A stretch of 42,502 bases of DNA from an uncultured virus (IMG/VR IMGVR_UViG_2522572172_000008). Taxonomy: Duplodnaviria > Heunggongvirae > Uroviricota > Caudoviricetes. The stretch lies in the IMG/VR virus record IMGVR_UViG_2522572172_000008; one strand, written 5' to 3'. Positions 156-41,501 of this stretch are shown one piece after another. Below the pieces are notes generated by a model, which saw only the letters and a program-made list of their open reading frames with translations, had not been told where the DNA came from and did no database searches. The first letter of the stretch is position 1. Each line of letters starts with the position of its first letter. A program made the position numbers and the translations under genes.

Positions 156-521
156 ATGACTAAAGAAAAAATTAATGTATATTTAGACGATAAAAGAGAC
201 TGTCCAAAAGGATTTACAATTGCAAGAACTATGGAGAAAGCGATTGAACTCCTTACAAACTATGCTGTTCAAATTCTTTCACTTGACCACGACTTAGGAG
301 AAGATGAGAATGGGAAACTACTCCCTACTGGTTATGATTTCGTGAAATATTTCTGCTTACACAATTTATTTGCTGAGAAAATTTATATTCACACTGACAA
401 TCCACCAGGTCGTCAAGCTATGTATGAGACGCTGAAAGGTGCTCAAAGACGAGGATTTATTGCTGAAGATATTAAAATACACCATTACTCAATCACAGTG
501 AATAGATACTCTGGCGAATAA
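156..521 (+). CDS. Cyclic-phosphate-processing receiver domain protein (cREC_REC-like)
   Basis: Motifs VYLDDxR, SLDHDLG, TGYD and IHTDNPPGR are typical of this stand-alone receiver-like family; RBS AAGGA upstream. Confidence 0.8.
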   Translation: MTKEKINVYLDDKRDCPKGFTIARTMEKAIELLTNYAVQILSLDHDLGEDENGKLLPTGYDFVKYFCLHNLFAEKIYIHTDNPPGRQAMYETLKGAQRRGFIAEDIKIHHYSITVNRYSGE

Positions 522-610
522 AACGTGCTCGCAATAGAATTTAATAATAATGCTCATCCTTTCTTATTATGATATAGCAAATATTTATTTAAGAGAGGAT
601 GAAAATTGCG

Positions 611-895
611 ATGGCAAAACCGAAAACAATAAAAGGAACTGTTGGAGAAAAGACAGTTGAATATAAAGAAATGACTATGAAAGAGTATTTTGTAGTTTTC
701 ATTACTACATTAGTAGGTTTTTCTTTCCCTACAGCTATAATTGCTTTTCTACTTGTTAAAACTACCGAGCTAAACATCTTTACAGCAGTTGTTATCGGAT
801 TACTTATGATAATTTTATTAGTTGTTTCATTCGGATGGCATAAACCTGCTTATAAAAATGAAAAGAAATCAGAGAAAGATGATGACGATGATTAA
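611..895 (+). CDS. Small two-TM membrane protein
   Basis: Two hydrophobic segments and a charged tail; GAGGA RBS at 595-599; terminator follows (start could also be 599). Confidence 0.7.
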   Translation: MAKPKTIKGTVGEKTVEYKEMTMKEYFVVFITTLVGFSFPTAIIAFLLVKTTELNIFTAVVIGLLMIILLVVSFGWHKPAYKNEKKSEKDDDDD

Positions 896-926
896 GAGGT
901 GTATCTATAATGGTACATCTTTTTTT
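894..926 (+). terminator. Intrinsic terminator
   Basis: AAGAGGTGTA(TC)...GGTACATCTT stem followed by a T-run directly after the stop codon. Confidence 0.6.
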
Positions 927-1048
927 ATGTTCATAAATGTTAAAGCATGATGGTCCCTACTATTTTACATTTTGGTTACATTACCTATATAAATTGTATT
1001 TATTTGATATAATAATATCCGAAATTAATGAATATAGGAGGTTTTATT

Positions 1049-1909
1049 TTGGCTAATAAAAATAGAACTAAGCAGAAGCAAAATAATAAATCACAAGATG
1101 CTCAACATGTACAAGAAACACCTGATTCTGCTTCTTCAAAAATCAACAACAATGAAATAAAAAGTAATAATGGATTCTTTAAAATTGTAAGCCAAGCAAC
1201 GCTTATTGCGTTGCTGTTAACAGCACTAAGTTATTCGTTTACAGCCTTATTTAAATCTGGATATCATCATTATTATCGATTAAATGATTATTCATTGTTA
1301 ACAATTGATACAAGCGATTTGGTACATTTCTTTTTAGTATCATTCCAATATCTATTACCATTAACAATATCTTATTTTGCTGTTAGATACATATTCTTAG
1401 CACCTGAATTTTTCCTCAGAAAAGGTGGAGTAAAAAGTATAACAATAGCTTTTGTTATCATTCTTTTCTTTATACCCATGTTTATGTCTTGGATTTTTAA
1501 TATAGACAAATTCGATAAAAGATATATATTTGCATGGGCATTTGTTACAAATTGTATAGTTTTTTATCAGTTCTTCTCACCTACAGTCCAATCTATATTA
1601 CAATTTCTTCTAACGCCAATCAGACCTTACAAAGTATTTTTTATTCTCAGTGCATTTATCTTTTTAGGAATTGGCTCCTATAGATTAGGTGTTGATACAG
1701 CAAAAAAACAAGAAGAATATTCAATTGTTACTCAGGGTGAAGAAGAGCTTATTGTAATTAGTACCAAAGGCAACAGTTTAATTACAGCTCCTTTTAATAA
1801 GGATACAAATACAATAAAATCAACCTTTACAGTTATTCCCATGAAAAATCAATTAAGCTTAAAGACTACAACACTGACAAAAAATTTAATAGTAAAATCA
1901 GACATATAA
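1049..1909 (+). CDS. Multi-pass membrane protein, unknown function
   Basis: About 5 TM segments and a soluble C-terminus; AGGAGG RBS before an in-frame TTG at 1049. Confidence 0.75.
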   Translation: MANKNRTKQKQNNKSQDAQHVQETPDSASSKINNNEIKSNNGFFKIVSQATLIALLLTALSYSFTALFKSGYHHYYRLNDYSLLTIDTSDLVHFFLVSFQYLLPLTISYFAVRYIFLAPEFFLRKGGVKSITIAFVIILFFIPMFMSWIFNIDKFDKRYIFAWAFVTNCIVFYQFFSPTVQSILQFLLTPIRPYKVFFILSAFIFLGIGSYRLGVDTAKKQEEYSIVTQGEEELIVISTKGNSLITAPFNKDTNTIKSTFTVIPMKNQLSLKTTTLTKNLIVKSDI

Positions 1910-1916
1910 ATAATAT

Positions 1917-1965
1917 GAATACATAAAAAAACACCTTATTTGTCTTTAGGTGTTTTTATGTATTC
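1917..1965. terminator. Long inverted repeat / bidirectional terminator
   Basis: GAATACATAAAAA..CACCT ... AGGTGTTTTTATGTATTC. Confidence 0.7.
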
Positions 1966-2085
1966 AGCACTTCCCTATTACTCACTAAAAGAATATAATT
2001 TCTTTTATGAAATCCAACCGAGTTTTGTAATAGAATGATATAGTCATATTAGCAAATCATATTAAACTGTTTAGGAGGAACACTG

Positions 2086-2940
2086 TTGATTGAAACATTA
2101 TTAATAAAATTTTATAAACAAAATCTGAGTAATTATGCATTAGTATACAAACATGTTCTTATTAACATCATCATTGCAGTTATAATAATTTTTCTTTCTG
2201 TACTAATTCCAGCCCCCTATATTATTCATAATAACCAAGAGTTTCTGTTAATATCTATATTTTTCTTTATTTCATTAATAGTAGCTGTTATGGCACTAAG
2301 TTTATTAGTTAATCTTCCTGCAATGAATTTTACCAGGAGATTTTATAAAATAAAACTACGTAGTTTAGAGTGGGAACTTTTTCGTTTATATTTATTAAAA
2401 GAATATTTAGTTGAAACTAAATTTATAGATACTGAAAATAAAAATACAAAAGAAAACAAGGAAAAAATTGAAATGATTATTTCTTTATTCCAACAAAAAC
2501 TTGATAATCGACAAAAGAATAAACCTTTTTCAATTTTGGGTTCTTACTTTAACACTACTATTGTATTTTTAATTCCCATCTGGACCGCATTTAATAATCA
2601 AGTATACTTTAAAGAAGTCACCCTAAATGAAGCAATTCATAACATAGGAACTATTTTTTGGGTGGTACTACTTTTATTTGTTCTGTTTTGTATGATTAAA
2701 ATATATAAAATACAATATAAATTTCTTTACCCCGACTACAAATTGCAAGAAATCATATACATGCTTTCACAATTACAAATCATACATAATAATGACAAGT
2801 TTTCACAAAAACATATACCTCAAGACCAAAAAGACAAAATTAAAACTATGGTGAAAGATTACAATAAAACAAGGAATAATTACAAAGAAAAAAATACCAC
2901 TTCATTTTTAAAAAGATATTCTTATTTCAAATGGAAGTGA
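2086..2940 (+). CDS. Membrane protein (2+2 TM), unknown function
   Basis: AGGAGG RBS and TTG start; 284-aa ORF with two pairs of hydrophobic helices; very AT-rich. Confidence 0.75.
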   Translation: MIETLLIKFYKQNLSNYALVYKHVLINIIIAVIIIFLSVLIPAPYIIHNNQEFLLISIFFFISLIVAVMALSLLVNLPAMNFTRRFYKIKLRSLEWELFRLYLLKEYLVETKFIDTENKNTKENKEKIEMIISLFQQKLDNRQKNKPFSILGSYFNTTIVFLIPIWTAFNNQVYFKEVTLNEAIHNIGTIFWVVLLLFVLFCMIKIYKIQYKFLYPDYKLQEIIYMLSQLQIIHNNDKFSQKHIPQDQKDKIKTMVKDYNKTRNNYKEKNTTSFLKRYSYFKWK

Positions 2941-2948
2941 TAAAAAAT

Positions 2949-2974
2949 AAAAGCACCTATTATTAGGTGCTTTT
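2949..2974. terminator. Bidirectional terminator between convergent genes
   Basis: AAAAGCACCTA-TTAT-TAGGTGCTTTT perfect stem. Confidence 0.75.
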
Positions 2975-3219
2975 TAATACAACTTCTTCCCCTTTCCAAT
3001 TGTTAATGTCCATGCAGTTCCACAAGGATTGGGAATCTCTTGAGCATCAATTAGACATTCTTTGCACTTGTCATTTTTATACCACTCACAATTTTTAGTT
3101 ACAGCATTACGCAACACTCGCTTTGAAACAACTCTGGCAGTTGGTCCCTTCAAATATCTATCTTCCGTATGCACAATTATATTTTTAGGGTCTTTTATCA
3201 TATCTACTGTTTTATTCAT
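2974..3219 (-). CDS. Small Cys-containing hypothetical protein
   Basis: GAGGA RBS before ATG 3219; 81 aa with C-x7-CxxC-x10-C. Confidence 0.6.
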   Translation of the reverse strand: MNKTVDMIKDPKNIIVHTEDRYLKGPTARVVSKRVLRNAVTKNCEWYKNDKCKECLIDAQEIPNPCGTAWTLTIGKGKKLY

Positions 3220-37071: not shown

Positions 37072-37410
37072 ATGAATAAAAAAATAGTAATTATGGAGTA
37101 TAGTGATGGGCAAATCTCTGTATTGTTTGAGGATAAAACGAGAAGGATTATTAGTAGAGGCGAGTTAGGTCTAATTCAATTAACACAACAACATCGTAAG
37201 AATCCTAAAGTAGAATATATGGAGTTAACTGAGCTTGAGGTTGTTATTAGATTAAGCTTTATTAGAAGATTTATAGAAAATAATGTATTAGATGGTTCTG
37301 TGGATAAAGTTCAACTAAAACATCACATTGATAAATTGAATTTTTACCATCAGTATGGAATCATTTCTGATGAAGATTTTGAGGATTATATGAGTCGAAT
37401 AAAGGCATAA
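37072..37410 (+). CDS. Hypothetical protein on the opposite strand within the tra region
   Basis: GAGG RBS; 112 aa; terminator follows. Confidence 0.7.
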   Translation: MNKKIVIMEYSDGQISVLFEDKTRRIISRGELGLIQLTQQHRKNPKVEYMELTELEVVIRLSFIRRFIENNVLDGSVDKVQLKHHIDKLNFYHQYGIISDEDFEDYMSRIKA

Positions 37411-37413
37411 AAA

Positions 37414-37440
37414 ATAAAGTACCTATTTTAGGTACTTTAT
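37414..37440. terminator. Bidirectional terminator
   Basis: ATAAAGTACCTA-TTT-TAGGTACTTTAT perfect stem between convergent genes. Confidence 0.75.
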
Positions 37441-38585
37441 TGCATGAGAGGTAATAGTTTTTCATTCAGGATACGTTCGATGTTTTTAGGATTTTTATTG
37501 AACTCTTTATAACTTATCCTGATTAGTAAAAGCTCATTTGATATACAATATTCATCCTTTATTCTATCTTTTATTTGTCTTTTTCTAAACGATTCCTCTC
37601 CCCCAAAATGTTCAACAGGCTTTATATGTTGTATTCCATCAAATTCAATGAGGGTTACAATTTTATTTTCTTTAAAAACTGCAAAATCAAATCTAAGTTT
37701 CCCTTTATAAATACAATCATCAAAAGTGTATTCCTTTTCATATTCAATGTTCTTACTTTCAAGATAGTTCATTATAAGCTGTTCACCTTTACTGGAGTTG
37801 CATTTTATACAAACCGAACCTACCAATAAACTATCAGGATTCAAATCAAATATATGATTACACTTCTTATGCCTAACTGTTATTTTCACTCTACTGCCCT
37901 GATACTCACTTAATAAGGTGTATTCATCATCATAGATATCAGCTATTTCTCTTTTGAATTCTTGATGTGTTTTTAATTTATTTAACCTTCTTCTTTGTTT
38001 TGTACATTCAGGGCATGTTGCTTTTCTTTGAAGAAATCCATCTGCTCTTGGACTCCATTCGTACTCACACTTATTGTGTCTGATTTTAATCTTATTTGAA
38101 TTACTTTTATACTGTCCTATCACACTGTATTCAGAGCCATAAATACTATCTATTTCTCTTACATAGTCTTCATGACTTTTCCTAATATTACCTGCACAAA
38201 AAGAACATCTCGCTCCTAATGAAATGAAATCATTTGGTCGAATATCATATTCCCTTCCACACATATTATGCTTTACCGTTAGAGGGGTTTTACTATTCTT
38301 ATACTCTCCTAAAACCTCATACTCATCACCTACTAATTTTTTTATCTCTTCTTTAAATGATTTTGTTGTCTTTTTTATTTTTCCATAACAATTTGGACAT
38401 CGTTTACTTTTAAAAAATACCCGTGGCTGTACATCCCATTCATAGTCACAAGCATCATGTCTCATACGAATTAATTCACTTGACGTCTTATAAACACCTA
38501 ATACAGTGTATTCGTTCCCTCTTTTTTCTTTCACTTCTTTCAGGAAATATTCATGCGTTTTTTGATAACCTCTTGGCATTTTCAT
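37437..38585 (-). CDS. Free-standing putative homing endonuclease: four Zn-ribbon repeats plus a Vsr/DUF559-like (EDxHD-type) nuclease domain
   Basis: Four ~62-aa repeats (EY.VLG.Y...H..C...P..F...C..C), then SKGE...LRFDF...IEFDGIQH...DRIKD...LIRISY. Confidence 0.8.
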   Translation of the reverse strand: MKMPRGYQKTHEYFLKEVKEKRGNEYTVLGVYKTSSELIRMRHDACDYEWDVQPRVFFKSKRCPNCYGKIKKTTKSFKEEIKKLVGDEYEVLGEYKNSKTPLTVKHNMCGREYDIRPNDFISLGARCSFCAGNIRKSHEDYVREIDSIYGSEYSVIGQYKSNSNKIKIRHNKCEYEWSPRADGFLQRKATCPECTKQRRRLNKLKTHQEFKREIADIYDDEYTLLSEYQGSRVKITVRHKKCNHIFDLNPDSLLVGSVCIKCNSSKGEQLIMNYLESKNIEYEKEYTFDDCIYKGKLRFDFAVFKENKIVTLIEFDGIQHIKPVEHFGGEESFRKRQIKDRIKDEYCISNELLLIRISYKEFNKNPKNIERILNEKLLPLMQ

Positions 38586-38659: not shown

Positions 38660-38698
38660 GAAAAAACGCACCTGGAAATTATCCAAGTACGTTTTTTT
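38660..38698 (-). terminator. Intrinsic terminator directly after pilin exon 3
   Basis: Minus strand AAAAACGTACTTGGA-loop-TCCAGGTGCGTTTTTT, about 15 nt after the TAA at 38713. Confidence 0.75.
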
Positions 38699-38712: not shown

Positions 38713-40010
38713 TTATTTGAATGCACTGTAGAAAACACTGTACCCTGTCTTTCGACATATTTCATAAGGGGTTAGACTATATCATACTCCACAGCTTCAT
38801 CTGTTTGGAGTGTTGGCACTTCGGAGGAAGGATTTTCACCTTCTATCTCCTACTCTACTCACTCTGTTTTTTTAACAGGTTTTCGATAGTCGTTACACTT
38901 GCTACTATGTTATATAGTAGATTAGCACGGTATTATCAAGCTATCTACATCTCTGTAGACCTTAGAGTCTCTTACGAAGCGTATTCGCCTATGGTCATTT
39001 CTCCTTTTGAGAGAAAGGCTTGTAATTGTCATACAAGCAGTCTTAGTTAACTTCTACCGTTAGCATGATTGCATCATCACACACCCTGCACTTACAGGTT
39101 CACCAACTGTTTCCTTACGCCATTTCTGGCATAGGGGACTTTTCCTTTCGGATAATCCTACGATGATAGTTACGGCACCTACTTTCCTTTTTTGTCTTTC
39201 GACACATCTTAAGGAAAAGACTATATCATACTCCACAGCTTCATCTGTTTGGAGTGTTGGCACTTCGAAGGGGGAGTTTCACCACAACCTCCTACTCTAC
39301 TAACTCTATACTGTATATAGGTTTTCGATAGTCGTTACACTTTTAATTATAAATATATATAAATAATACATTTACAATCACTTAGCACGGTATTAACAGC
39401 TATCTACATCTCTGTAGACCTTAGTCTCTCTTACGAAGCTCATTCGCCTATGGTCATTTCTCTTTTTGAGAGAAAGGCTTGTAATTGTCATACAAGCAGT
39501 CTTAGTTAACTTCTACCGTTAGCATAATAATAAACATTTATTATTACACACCCTGCATTTACAGGTTCACCAACTGTTTCCTTTCGTCATCTCTGACGCA
39601 GGGGACCATTTAGTTAATCCAGCGGCCGCAATACCACTCCAAATTAAGCCTGTTAACGCTTGAGAACGAGCTTGTGGGTTACCCGCAGATGCACCAAGTT
39701 TCATGAATTGGAAAATGAAGAACATAATCATTGAAACCGCACCGATACCAGAGATACCAACGATGAAGTTACGGTATTTGTTGATGAAATTAGTCCAAGC
39801 AGAACCACTATTAGAAGTATTGCTCATACCTCCACCACTAAGTTCTAATTTACCGTCACTACCAACTTTAACTTCAACATCGCCGATTTGTCCCTCTGCA
39901 TGTGCTTGCATCACAGGTAGTCCAAAGCCCATCATCATCACAAGAGTTAAGAAGAAAGCCATAATTCCGTTTTTCACGGAAAGGTGTTTTCTTTCGATAG
40001 CTTCTGTCAT
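38713..40010 (-). CDS. VirB2/TrbC-like pilin, spliced: join(39617-40010, 39155-39181, 38713-38735), 147 aa
   Basis: AGGAGG RBS; signal peptide QAHA|E; TM1-GNPQARSQA-TM2; the joined exons read GGA T|TA GGT GCC GTA ACT ATC ATC GTA GGA T|TT TTC TAC AGT GCA TTC AAA TAA and complete TM2; upstream of virB3/virB4-like genes. Confidence 0.85.
38736..39154 (-). ncRNA. Group I intron 2 (419 nt, no ORF, probably subgroup IA)
   Basis: 5' exon GGAU pairs with GUCC (U.G wobble); GAAAA pairs with 3' exon UUUUC (P10); core AAUACCGUGCUAA, GUGUAACGACUAUCGAAA and UGAUAUAGUC; P3 GUUGGU/GCCAAC; GUC-GAAA-GAC P9 hairpin; terminal G. Confidence 0.9.
39182..39616 (-). ncRNA. Group I intron 1 (435 nt, no ORF, probably subgroup IA)
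   Basis: Same P1 (GGAU/GUCC), P3, P7 (GACUA/UAGUC), P8 (ACUCCA/UGGAGU), P9 GAAA tetraloop and terminal G; extra helices between P7 and P3'. Confidence 0.9.
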
Positions 40011-40166: not shown

Positions 40167-41354
40167 CTACCCCCTAATAAAGGTTTTAGTAGCTACAAAC
40201 TCCATCATATCCTCATTTATAAGCATGTCATACAATAAGTCACTCATCTTTTTCGCCACAATCCCCTTCATTCCTCGTGCTCCTAACCCTTTATGTAAAG
40301 CTTCTGTAGCAATATATTCAATTGCTTCATCTGTAAAACGCAAATCTTTTTGTTCTTCTTTGAATAGCTTTATATATTCAGGAATAATAGCCCCATTAGG
40401 CTTCATTAAGATATCCATTAAGTCTTCTTTCGTTAATGGGTTTAGTGTAAGTATTAGAGGAATACGACCAATGAATTCAGGAATCAGTCCAAACTGTATT
40501 AAGTCCTCAATACTTATAGGACTCATTTTAGAATTATCCTTACTTGCCTCTACTGTATCTGCATTCGTAAATCCAATCGTTTTTTTATGCTTATTCATTC
40601 GTTTATCAACAATCTCTTGCAATCCATCAAAAGCTCCTCCAAATATAAATAGAATATTTGAAGTGTTAATGGTCACAGTTGTTCGTTTAATAGATTGTCT
40701 ATTTTGTTCGATTGTAAAATTTGTACCCTCAATCATTTTTAATAAAGCTTGTTGAACACCCTCACCTTGCGGGTCTTTTGTACTTGTATGTGATGTACGT
40801 TTTGCTAATTTATCAACTTCATCAATAAAAACAATTCCTTTTTCAGCAGAGGAAATATCTCCATTTGCTTCTTGTATTAAAGAAGATAAAATACTATCTA
40901 CATCTTTTCCGCTATATCCTGTTTCTGTAATTGTAGTAGCATCTACGATTGTCATGGGAATATTAATGATTTTTGAAATCGTCTCTACTAAATGCGTTTT
41001 TCCACAACCACTCTCACCAATTAGTAATATGTTGTTTTTAGGAATGTTTGTTTTTACTTTGCTATAAATTCGTTTGTAATGATTATAAATTTCGACTGTC
41101 AAAACCTTCTTTGCATCGTCTTGTCCAATTACATCTCTATCCAATTTATTTTTTATTTCATGTGGTCGTAAAGGACGTGAATACATCAGAGATGCTTCTT
41201 TTTTATTTACATTCCCCTTATTAGTTTCACCTGTTTTCCCATGAAAATGTTCGTAAGCAATTCGTGAACAATTCTTACAAAGTCCAACACCTTCAAGTAT
41301 AGCAGGTAAGAAATCCTTTTTTTCAAAACCACAAAATGAACATTTTTTCTCCAT
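40167..41354 (-). CDS. clpX: ClpX-family AAA+ unfoldase paralog
   Basis: CSFC...CKNC Zn domain, VIGQDDAKK, GESGCGKT, FIDEVDK, GEGVQQALLK, IGF loop, GLIPEFIGR and GARG; GAGG RBS before ATG 41354. Confidence 0.9.
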   Translation of the reverse strand: MEKKCSFCGFEKKDFLPAILEGVGLCKNCSRIAYEHFHGKTGETNKGNVNKKEASLMYSRPLRPHEIKNKLDRDVIGQDDAKKVLTVEIYNHYKRIYSKVKTNIPKNNILLIGESGCGKTHLVETISKIINIPMTIVDATTITETGYSGKDVDSILSSLIQEANGDISSAEKGIVFIDEVDKLAKRTSHTSTKDPQGEGVQQALLKMIEGTNFTIEQNRQSIKRTTVTINTSNILFIFGGAFDGLQEIVDKRMNKHKKTIGFTNADTVEASKDNSKMSPISIEDLIQFGLIPEFIGRIPLILTLNPLTKEDLMDILMKPNGAIIPEYIKLFKEEQKDLRFTDEAIEYIATEALHKGLGARGMKGIVAKKMSDLLYDMLINEDMMEFVATKTFIRG

Positions 41355-41501
41355 ATACGCATCCCTCCTTGTAAAATGAATTACTTCATTATACGAATAT
41401 ATTTTTACTATAGTAAACAAAATAAATGTTCTATCTCTTTCAATACAACAATTCATGAAAAATAAAAACAGCACATCAAAATGTACTGTTTCGAAATTTC
41501 A

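What the first reader, a model, noticed from the sequence alone, without database searches (positions are those of the whole stretch)
39155..39181. 27-nt in-frame micro-exon between same-phase introns allows exon skipping or recombinational loss
Seen: exon 2 is exactly 27 nt. Both 5' splice sites are GGAU in codon phase 1, both internal guides use GUCC, and the introns share long identical blocks (e.g. GACTATATCATACTCCACAGCTTCATCTGTTTGGAGTGTTGGCACTTCG). Inference: joining exon 1 straight to exon 3 stays in frame (...AAAGFFYSAFK, 138 aa, TM2 shortened by 9 residues). The same product would result from DNA recombination between the repeats leaving one hybrid intron. This could give pilin isoforms or a switch for transfer, though it may be only a mis-splicing by-product.
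Basis: partly seen in the sequence, partly recalled or inferred. Interest (0 to 1): 0.7.

Follow-up and report, generated by a model that had tools for sequence, protein, structure and literature searches.

The report
Twin group I introns split pilin gene
A conjugation-pilin gene on a large Bacillus thuringiensis plasmid is interrupted by two related self-splicing group I introns only 27 bases apart, with a homing-endonuclease gene next door, and RNA data show normal three-exon splicing rather than skipping of the tiny middle exon.

Summary
On the minus strand, a T4SS pilin gene (Pfam PF18895) of plasmid BTB_502p reads exon 1 (40010-39617), intron 1 (39616-39182, 435 nt), the 27-nt exon 2 (39181-39155), intron 2 (39154-38736, 419 nt) and exon 3 (38735-38713). 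Both introns follow GGAU, end in G and carry a GUCC guide. They are 88% identical and hold no ORF.

They are td-like group I introns. They share collinear core blocks with T4 td, and 14 of 39 core pairs show compensatory change across four relatives. Rfam's model misses them.

RNA-seq contigs show both introns removed at exactly the predicted junctions, including one contig joining all three exons. No exon 1-exon 3 joint was seen in three runs. All 119 uninterrupted homologues keep the nine residues that exon 2 encodes.

Protein records from B. cereus-group plasmids show 3 intronless alleles, 5 with intron 2 only and 11 with intron 1. One odd allele, P0132, has a hybrid-like 5' end.

The parts
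39617..40010 (-). Pilin exon 1 (394 nt): ATG at 40010, AGGAGG ribosome-binding site at 40025-40020. Ends ...GCT GGA T. Encodes the signal peptide, TM1 and the first half of TM2.
   Evidence: Pfam PF18895 T4SS_pilin, 31.7 bits against a cut-off of 26.6. RefSeq annotates it as a 147-aa hypothetical protein that reads on into intron 1.
39182..39616 (-). Intron 1, 435 nt, ORF-less td-like group I intron. GUCC guide at 39606-39603. P7 strands at 39333-39328 and 39224-39219. Terminal G at 39182.
   Evidence: RNA joint skipping 435 nt (39179->39615, ambiguous by 2) in X15, X17 and X19. Helices and compensatory changes. Blocks shared with T4 td. Longest stop-free stretch 39 aa.
39155..39181 (-). Exon 2, the 27-nt micro-exon. 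With the split codons it encodes LGAVTIIVG in TM2.
   Evidence: The nine residues are contiguous in all 119 uninterrupted homologues. It lies inside the three-exon RNA contig, X19 record 18.
38736..39154 (-). Intron 2, 419 nt, ORF-less, 88% identical to intron 1. GUCC guide at 39139-39136. P7 strands at 38891-38886 and 38780-38775. Terminal G at 38736. A 6-bp P10 is possible between GGAAAA (intron positions 10-15) and the exon 3 start UUUUCU.
   Evidence: RNA joint skipping 419 nt (38734->39154, ambiguous by 1) in X19 only. Weak RF00028 match of 12.5 bits that aligns the R and S elements. Structure counts.
38713..38735 (-). Exon 3 coding part (23 nt including TAA); encodes FFYSAFK with the split codon.
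   Evidence: The C-terminus is identical to intronless alleles P0004, P0128 and P0130.
38661..38697 (-). Intrinsic-terminator-like hairpin after the pilin gene.
   Evidence: 16-pair stem followed by a T run. RNA depth falls to 0 below 38698 in X15.
37437..38585 (-). Free-standing homing-endonuclease-like gene (P0137, 382 aa): four treble-clef zinc-finger repeats plus a C-terminal Vsr-like nuclease. Its own terminator-like hairpin lies at 37441-37413.

Best explanation
The 27-nt exon is the piece of a T4SS pilin gene left between two related, ORF-less, td-like (subgroup IA type) group I introns. Each intron sits after a GGAU in the region that encodes TM2.

Each intron pairs its GUCC guide with the GGAU at the end of the exon before it (P1, with U.G at the splice site). 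It folds into the P3-P9 core, with the P3/P7 pseudoknot and P7.1/P7.2, and is excised at its terminal G. The normal product is the three-exon mRNA, which encodes the conserved 147-aa pilin. The shared codon phase follows from both sites being GGA|T (a Gly codon plus T). It is not an adaptation for skipping.

The arrangement most likely arose through intron mobility. Site 2 was occupied first, since alleles exist with intron 2 alone. A copy was then inserted 27 nt upstream at a second GGAU. This could have happened by reverse splicing or by endonuclease-triggered repair.

The free-standing EDxHD/Vsr-like homing-endonuclease gene just downstream probably drives spread of the intron-bearing segment among B. 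cereus-group megaplasmids ('collaborative homing').

What is shown: intron boundaries, in vivo excision, core structure, allele polymorphism and the endonuclease fold. What is inferred: self-splicing without protein, the order of insertion, the route of transposition and the endonuclease's target.
For: Boundaries: the three-exon product matches intronless homologues.

Splicing: RNA contigs carry a 435-nt skip in 3 of 3 runs that gave coverage (X15 depth 1183, X17 1808, X19 3). X19 also carries a 419-nt skip and a 171-nt contig joining exon 3, exon 2 and exon 1. Unspliced contigs occur in the same runs.

Group I identity:
- U at -1 and a terminal G in both introns.
- Collinear blocks CCGTGCTAA, TAACGACTATC and GATATAGTCT shared with T4 td.
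- Between the two introns, 156 of 156 cells pair in 78 proposed pairs, with 4 compensatory changes.
- With two compact relatives (L013, L026), 39 core pairs are 95.5% paired and 14 show compensatory change. None of 500 shuffles reached this; slid controls gave 26-48% paired.

Mobility:
- Of 20 distinct B. cereus-group pilin sequences, 11 read into intron 1, 5 carry intron 2 only, 3 have no intron and 1 is odd. Different intron states occur on identical or near-identical exon 1 types.
- Only these two intron copies lie on the 502-kb plasmid.

Endonuclease:
- Domain, fold and family evidence.
- It sits between two terminator-like hairpins in a 1.8-kb insert between the pilin gene and prgI. In 5 of 5 megaplasmids of other genera, the pilin gene and prgI are adjacent.
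- Only one other full paralogue lies on the plasmid.
- The same endonuclease family follows six tandem group I introns in a Cytobacillus genome.
Against: - Rfam RF00028 does not reach its threshold: 12.5 bits against 50 for intron 2, and no match at all for intron 1.
- The intron 2 splice joint was seen in only 1 of 3 runs, at depth 3. In X17 intron 2 has exon-like depth and is contiguous with exon 2, so much of the RNA there is unspliced at intron 2.
- The RNA libraries may contain DNA, so the unspliced contigs are not proof of a precursor RNA.
- Self-splicing was not tested.
- Two hairpins between P3 and P4, and a roughly 110-nt expansion of P5, are not part of the td model. The structure was partly derived from these same sequences.
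- The link between endonuclease and introns rests on adjacency only. Whether intronless plasmids lack the endonuclease is unknown. Only 15 of its 24 cluster members were listed, and one entry hides its accessions.
- No DNA of any other allele could be fetched, so alleles that 'read into intron 1' may or may not carry exon 2 and intron 2.
Confidence: 0.8

Rival explanations
1. One reading: the shared phase, the shared GGAU/GUCC pairing and the repeats are used to skip exon 2 in RNA, or to delete it by recombination between the introns. Either would give a 138-aa pilin isoform or an on/off switch for transfer.
For: Both P1 pairings are the same 4 bp, so either guide could hold exon 1. The skipped product is in frame. 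Identical blocks of 62 and 50 nt could support recombination. Exon skipping between similar group I introns has been reported for phage Twort; I saw this only as a passage in PMC3073962. P0132 reads exon 1, then an intron-1-type guide, then an intron-2-type P2.
Against: No exon 1-exon 3 joint was listed in 3 RNA runs, though contigs drop rare forms. None of the 119 uninterrupted homologues lacks the nine residues. All 5 readable one-intron alleles keep exon 2. All 14 DNA runs listed hold 0.99 of the words of the two-intron form. In P0132 the switch lies within a 7-nt shared run, not in a long identical block, and its 2,222-nt contig looks like an assembly broken by repeats.
Confidence: 0.07
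2. Splicing of intron 2 is slow or conditional and acts as a gate on pilin production, and so on conjugation. Intron 1 is removed quickly, and an exon 1-exon 2-intron 2 RNA accumulates until conditions allow the second splice.
For: In X17, intron 1 has zero depth, yet intron 2 has depth of about 480-3200, similar to exon 1. A 258-nt contig runs from intron 2 into exon 2. The exon 2-exon 3 joint was not listed in X15 or X17 despite high depth.
Against: Depths of Logan contigs are a poor measure of RNA level, and contigs at branch points are filtered. The excised intron could simply be stable. Exon 3 has no coverage at all in X17, so the 3' end may just be missing. There is no raw-read evidence: X22 laid 0 reads.
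Confidence: 0.12
3. The two ~430-nt repeats are not ribozymes. They would be copies of some other insertion, or an assembly duplication, and the gene would be broken.
For: No Rfam family reaches threshold. RefSeq annotates only a truncated hypothetical protein.
Against: Both repeats are removed exactly from RNA. The core pairs covary. The same arrangement is held by 14 DNA runs from 4 studies, and the 147-aa read-through protein is seen on 52 contigs.
Confidence: 0.01

Closest known systems
Phage T4 td intron (subgroup IA2 group I intron)
   Same: Same order of conserved blocks (P4'/P6 CCGUGCUAA, P7 UAACGACUAUC, P7' GAUAUAGUCU) and extra helices between P7 and P3'. Interrupts a protein-coding gene after U and ends in G.
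   Different: td carries its endonuclease (I-TevI) inside the intron. The introns here have no ORF, have two extra hairpins between P3 and P4, and have a much larger P5 region. Overall identity is too low for blastn.
Staphylococcus phage Twort orf142: three similar group I introns in one gene, with exon skipping
   Same: Several closely related group I introns in one protein-coding gene, with short exons between them and guides that can cross-react.
   Different: Skipped products were reported for Twort (passage in PMC3073962; the original paper was not held). None was seen here. The host here is a plasmid conjugation gene, not a phage gene.
[quoted passage not shown]
   Same: ORF-less introns with a free-standing homing-endonuclease gene directly beside the interrupted gene. 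Intron presence is polymorphic among near-identical alleles. The concept is as described in PMC3984707 (passages).
   Different: The endonuclease's target and activity are untested. It belongs to a different nuclease family (Vsr-like). Two introns are involved. The replicon is a megaplasmid.
I-Bth0305I (EDxHD family), encoded in the recA intron of B. thuringiensis phage 0305phi8-36
   Different: I-Bth0305I is intron-encoded and binds DNA through NUMOD/HTH motifs. P0137 is free-standing and has four treble-clef zinc-finger repeats (DUF4379). Sequence identity is 16%.
Group II introns in conjugation genes (Ll.LtrB in the pRS01 relaxase gene; B.th.I1 and B.th.I2 in the pAW63 tra genes)
   Same: A self-splicing intron inside a gene that plasmid transfer requires, so splicing is a precondition for conjugation (PMC9673590 passages; PMC7293003 abstract).
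   Different: Those are group II introns, with a different ribozyme and a mobility route based on reverse transcriptase.

Membership tests
Group I intron | The 5' exon ends in U, which pairs with G of an internal guide sequence (P1) | tested here: met
   GGAU pairs with GUCC in both introns, with U.G at the splice site.
Group I intron | The intron ends in G (omega G) | tested here: met
   G at 39182 and at 38736. These boundaries are fixed by the homologues and by the RNA joints.
Group I intron | Conserved core P3-P8 with the P3/P7 pseudoknot, supported by covariation | tested here: met
   39 core pairs, 95.5% of 155 cells paired, 14 pairs with compensatory change, none of 500 shuffles as high. 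Between the two introns, 78 pairs are 100% paired. All unpaired cells come from L026, where the alignment is out of register.
Group I intron | Match to the Rfam covariance model RF00028 at its gathering score | tested here: not met
   12.5 bits against 50 for intron 2; no match for intron 1. The model also misses 15 of 20 loci fetched with the same R...S motif pair, so it is insensitive to this subclass.
Group I intron | Precise excision and exon ligation in RNA | tested here: met
   Joints of 435 nt (3 runs) and 419 nt (1 run), and a three-exon contig.
Group I intron | Protein-independent self-splicing started by guanosine | not testable with these tools
   Needs an in vitro splicing assay.
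Subgroup IA2 (td-like) | P7.1/P7.2 helices between P7 and P3', and td-type R, S and Q sequences | tested here: inconclusive
   P7.1 has 2 compensatory pairs and the td blocks are shared. P7.2 was not counted. The two hairpins between P3 and P4 are not part of td. The subgroup's definition is recalled, not taken from a call.
T4SS pilin (Pfam PF18895) | Profile match above the curated cut-off, and a place in a T4SS gene cluster | tested here: met
   31.7 bits against 26.6. PrgI, a VirB4-like ATPase and a cell-wall hydrolase lie downstream. NCBIfam NF045849 scores 31.9 bits, below its cut-off of 40.
EDxHD / Vsr-like homing endonuclease | Vsr-like nuclease fold with conserved acidic and His residues | tested here: met
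EDxHD / Vsr-like homing endonuclease | Cleaves the intron-less allele at or near the insertion site | not testable with these tools
   Needs a cleavage assay.
Collaborative homing system | The endonuclease gene is absent from, and the target intact in, intron-less alleles | tested here: inconclusive
   Consecutive accession numbers link the endonuclease gene to 5 intron-bearing pilin genes. None of the 15 listed endonuclease entries shares a contig length with the 3 intronless alleles, but 9 entries were not listed and one hides its accessions.
Exon skipping by tandem group I introns (Twort type) | An RNA that joins the exon before the first intron to the exon after the second | tested here: inconclusive
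   Not listed in 3 runs laid as contigs. Contigs drop rare variants, and the raw-read run X22 laid nothing.

The most novel reading that the evidence does not exclude
These may be the first group I introns found in a genuine plasmid conjugation gene. They may also form a living example of two steps for which the review read here (PMC3984707) reports no direct experimental evidence. In the first step, an ORF-less intron copies itself to a second GGAU site 27 nt away in the same gene. In the second, a neighbouring free-standing Vsr-like endonuclease spreads the intron-bearing segment between megaplasmids. Alleles with 0, 1 and 2 introns coexist in B. cereus-group strains, so both steps could be tested in crosses. 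Pilin production, and hence plasmid transfer, would depend on two ribozymes, one of which (intron 2) may be rate-limiting.
Probability: 0.35. Interest if true: 0.72.

Novelty: new member of a known kind. Interest (0 to 1): 0.6.

Why it matters
- A 2008 survey of the B. cereus group stated that no group I intron in any bacterium had been found in a standalone plasmid gene outside a prophage (PMC2504315, passages). My searches found no later report of one in a T4SS or pilin gene. One 2006 paper mentions a group I intron in pXO1. That conflicts with the 2008 survey and may refer to a group II intron.
- Across the B. cereus group the pilin gene is annotated as a truncated 'hypothetical protein' or as a 171-aa 'pilin' that reads into an intron. 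The real 147-aa product is therefore missed.
- Near-identical alleles with 0, 1 and 2 introns, beside a free-standing endonuclease gene, give a natural system for testing ectopic intron transposition and collaborative homing.
- Transfer of a 0.5-Mb plasmid may depend on ribozyme activity.
- Rfam's group I model misses this subclass of introns.

Tried and rejected
- Rfam at gathering score over the whole window: nothing. E-value scans gave only a 12.5-bit RF00028 match.
- blastn of intron 1 against phages and plasmids: only short chance-level pieces (Acinetobacter phage, 57 nt; C. botulinum plasmid, 73 nt).
- No whole genome is held for the window.
- The search for related loci with P0004 in genome contigs: 170 pattern matches, no relative. 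The exact 48-nt core block in metagenome contigs: 0 matches.
- The R...S pattern fetched 55 loci. None is a close relative by blastn; matches were 21-77 nt in 18 loci. Only L013 and L026 proved alignable over the core.
- Raw-read run X22: 0 reads laid, so no test.
- My PrgI cluster look-up failed through a coordinate slip of mine. The test of whether the pilin gene and prgI are adjacent in intronless genomes was therefore lost.
- The Twort paper PMC22036 is not held.
- The scan's earlier findings returned nothing in 3 look-ups.
- The first structure count mis-nested the P3/P7 pseudoknot and was redone.
- The 109-aa antisense ORF at 38721-39050 was considered and left as probably spurious. It has no counterpart in intron 1 and was not searched.

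Full report
**Where the window lies.** The region is 100% identical to Bacillus thuringiensis Bt407 plasmid BTB_502p (NC_018878.1, 501,911 bp). This was the only one of 72,556 PLSDB records found by megablast. RefSeq annotates only a 147-aa 'hypothetical protein' at the site of the finding.

**The observation.** The gene lies on the minus strand.
- The ORF starts at 40010 behind an AGGAGG and runs to ...GCT GGA T at 39617.
- A 435-nt insert follows (39616-39182), then 27 nt (39181-39155), a 419-nt insert (39154-38736), and then TTTTCTAC...TAA (38735-38713).
- Both inserts follow GGAT, with the T in codon position 1. Both contain GUCC a few bases in, and both end in G.
- They are 88% identical, with identical blocks of 62, 50, 27, 25, 24 and 21 nt, and no stop-free stretch longer than 43 codons.
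- The three pieces together encode 147 aa ending AAAGLGAVTIIVGFFYSAFK. Without the 27 nt the frame is kept and the product has 138 aa.

**The inserts are real intervening sequences.**
- blastn and tblastn found the same gene on megaplasmids of other genera; 11 records matched exon 1.
- I fetched five of them (Aneurinibacillus, Jeotgalibacillus, Paenibacillus, Clostridium perfringens and Geobacillus). In all five the gene is uninterrupted, ends ...AAAGLG[AGS]V..I[VT]G[FL]F..., and is followed directly by prgI.
- Exon 1 matches Pfam PF18895 (T4SS pilin; 31.7 bits, cut-off 26.6).
- Downstream lie PrgI, a VirB4-like ATPase and a 1,125-aa SLT/M23/NlpC-P60 hydrolase.

Both inserts split the segment that encodes the second transmembrane helix.

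**They are group I introns.**
- Rfam does not call them. Nothing reached gathering score, intron 2 scored 12.5 bits on RF00028, and intron 1 had no match. That weak alignment does place the R and S core elements with high posterior probability.
- The T4 td intron, fetched for comparison, shares three blocks in the same order: CCGTGCTAA, TAACGACTATC and GATATAGTCT.
- I derived a structure with these helices, in order: P2, P3, two hairpins, P4, an expanded P5 region, P6, P7, P7.1, P3', P8, P7' and P9.
- Counted on the two introns, with P7 written as a pseudoknot, 78 pairs gave 156 of 156 cells paired. There were 4 compensatory changes and 1 one-sided change; slid controls gave 28-46% paired. The structure was derived from these sequences, so this count leans toward it.
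- A pattern of the R and S motifs fetched 55 loci from public contigs. Two of them, L013 (a Clostridia MAG) and L026 (a viral contig), are compact relatives with the same P3-hairpin-hairpin-P4 order.
- On a four-sequence alignment I counted 39 pairs of eight core helices; P7.1, the P5 region and the inner part of P8 were left out as not alignable. They were 95.5% paired and 14 pairs showed compensatory change. None of 500 shuffles reached this, and slid controls gave 26-48%. All unpaired cells are from L026, whose P3' and P8 are out of register. By eye its own P3 is CCUAUCU/AGGUAGG.
- Rfam's model also misses 15 of 20 loci carrying the same motif pair, so its failure here is not informative.

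**Splicing in vivo.** Of the 24 runs listed, 20 hold the stretch or part of it; 14 of these are DNA runs with 0.99 of the words and 6 are RNA runs. The other 4 are unindexed raw-read RNA runs. I laid three RNA runs kept as contigs and one raw-read run.
- A joint skipping 435 nt (39179->39615, ambiguous by 2, which equals 39182-39616) is present in X15 (depth 1183), X17 (1808) and X19 (3).
- A joint skipping 419 nt (38734->39154, ambiguous by 1, which equals 38736-39154) is present only in X19.
- X19 record 18 (171 nt) joins exon 3, exon 2 and exon 1 with no mismatch. The same run also holds a contig running from intron 2 into exon 3.
- X15 holds unspliced contigs across the exon 1/intron 1 junction as well as the spliced joint.
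- No joint from exon 1 to exon 3 was listed in any run.
- X17 has no depth over intron 1 but exon-like depth over intron 2, and no coverage of exon 3.
- X17's intron 2 is letter-identical to the window over 230 nt. The site-2-only alleles differ there, so X17 is the two-intron type and not a strain lacking intron 1.
- Caveats: contigs drop rare variants, their depths are rough, DNA may be present in the libraries, and the raw-read run X22 laid nothing.

**Allele survey.** DNA of other alleles could not be fetched, but the protein collection gives their C-termini. Of 136 family sequences, 119 are uninterrupted and all keep the nine residues. Twenty distinct sequences come from the B. cereus group (three of them among the 119 uninterrupted ones):
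- 11 read from exon 1 into intron 1 (...GLTKWSPASEMTKG[NK]SW).
- 5 have exon 2 contiguous and read into intron 2 (...GLGAVTIIVGLSEKKSPLRPKW...), so they lack intron 1.
- 3 are intronless and end exactly as the predicted spliced product.
- P0132 reads ...GLTKWSP and then MPEMA*. That is an intron-1-type guide followed by the window's intron-2-type P2.

The same exon 1 variant occurs with different intron states: P0136, P0004 and P0135; P0001 and P0129/P0134; P0126 and P0131. Gain or loss of introns is therefore recent. Whether the intron-1 alleles and P0132 carry exon 2 and intron 2 cannot be told from proteins. The switch in P0132 lies in a shared run of only 7 nt, and its contig is 2,222 nt long. 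Gene conversion in a two-intron allele seems to me likelier than a deletion, but this remains open.

**The neighbouring gene.**
- The pilin stop codon is followed by a strong terminator-like hairpin (38697-38661). A 382-aa ORF follows (38585-37437) with its own terminator-like hairpin.
- Together with a 112-aa ORF it forms a 1.8-kb insert between the pilin gene and prgI. That insert is absent from the five other megaplasmids.
- The ORF matches PHROG families annotated as endonuclease, homing endonuclease and intron-encoded nuclease (E 7.5e-97 to 2.2e-19), and Pfam DUF4379 (treble-clef zinc finger).
- Sources name its relatives very-short-patch-repair endonuclease or DUF2726.
[quoted passage not shown] Foldseek alone gave no match at E <= 0.001.
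- D, E, H and D positions are invariant in 45 aligned sequences.
- Consecutive accession numbers place this gene beside the pilin gene in five other genomes, 2 site-2-only and 3 intron-1.
- The plasmid has only one other full paralogue.
- In a Cytobacillus genome the same family follows six tandem group I introns.
- Whether intronless plasmids lack the gene could not be settled.

**Reading.** The micro-exon is what remains between two insertions of one intron lineage at two GGAU sites 27 nt apart. The normal outcome is the three-exon mRNA. The shared phase and guide follow from the shared target and do not indicate a skipping device. Skipping and recombination remain chemically and genetically possible. 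No product of either was seen, and the segment that would be lost is conserved throughout the family. The more interesting reading is mobility: ectopic insertion of an ORF-less intron, and spread helped by a free-standing endonuclease. This matches what reviews call collaborative homing (PMC3984707, passages).

**Literature.**
- A 2008 survey stated that no group I intron was known in a standalone plasmid gene outside prophages (PMC2504315, passages).
- My searches found none in a T4SS or pilin gene: 'group I intron' with conjugative plasmid and B. thuringiensis; with pXO16; with type IV secretion and pilin; and with megaplasmid.
- The library lacks most subscription journals, so this is not proof of absence.
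- I did not see the pXO16 papers in Plasmid (2015) and Environmental Microbiology (2018).

Noticed in passing
L075 10318-12415 (Cytobacillus sp. FJAT-54145 scaffold, G001:C4): Six tandem RF00028 group I introns (69.5-99.5 bits) separated by only about 35-133 nt. They lie at the 3' end of a 1,200-aa ORF with no Pfam family and are followed by a 381-aa DUF4379+DUF2726 endonuclease of the same family as P0137. Two more paralogues lie nearby.
   Followed up: partly
window 37437-38585 (-): A free-standing homing-endonuclease-like gene (four zinc-finger repeats plus a Vsr-like nuclease) sits 127 nt downstream of the pilin stop codon.
   Followed up: yes
window 38736-39154 in run X17: Intron 2 has exon-like depth and is contiguous with exon 2, while intron 1 has no depth. 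This may mean slow or conditional splicing of intron 2, or a stable excised intron.
   Followed up: no
loci L010-L064: RF00028 reaches its gathering score in only 5 of 20 loci that carry the td-type R...S motif pair, so the Rfam model misses much of this intron subclass.
   Followed up: partly
window 40167-41474 (-): A ClpX-like AAA+ gene lies directly upstream of the pilin gene. A clpX gene also lies just upstream of the pilin gene on the Paenibacillus megaplasmid, and one gene further upstream on C. perfringens pJFP838A.
   Followed up: no
NC_018878.1 23035-24312 (+), outside the window: A second full paralogue of the endonuclease (457-aa frame) lies on the same plasmid. Its neighbourhood was not examined.
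   Followed up: no
window 37072-37410 (+): A 112-aa ORF with no family lies between the endonuclease gene and prgI. A cluster member sits on a 29,040-nt contig, the same length as the contig of the intronless pilin P0004.
   Followed up: partly
L001 5419-6073 (plasmid, upstream of the window region): A nucleotidyltransferase/HepT-like ribonuclease pair (a toxin-antitoxin-like module) is annotated about 3 kb upstream of the pilin gene.
   Followed up: no
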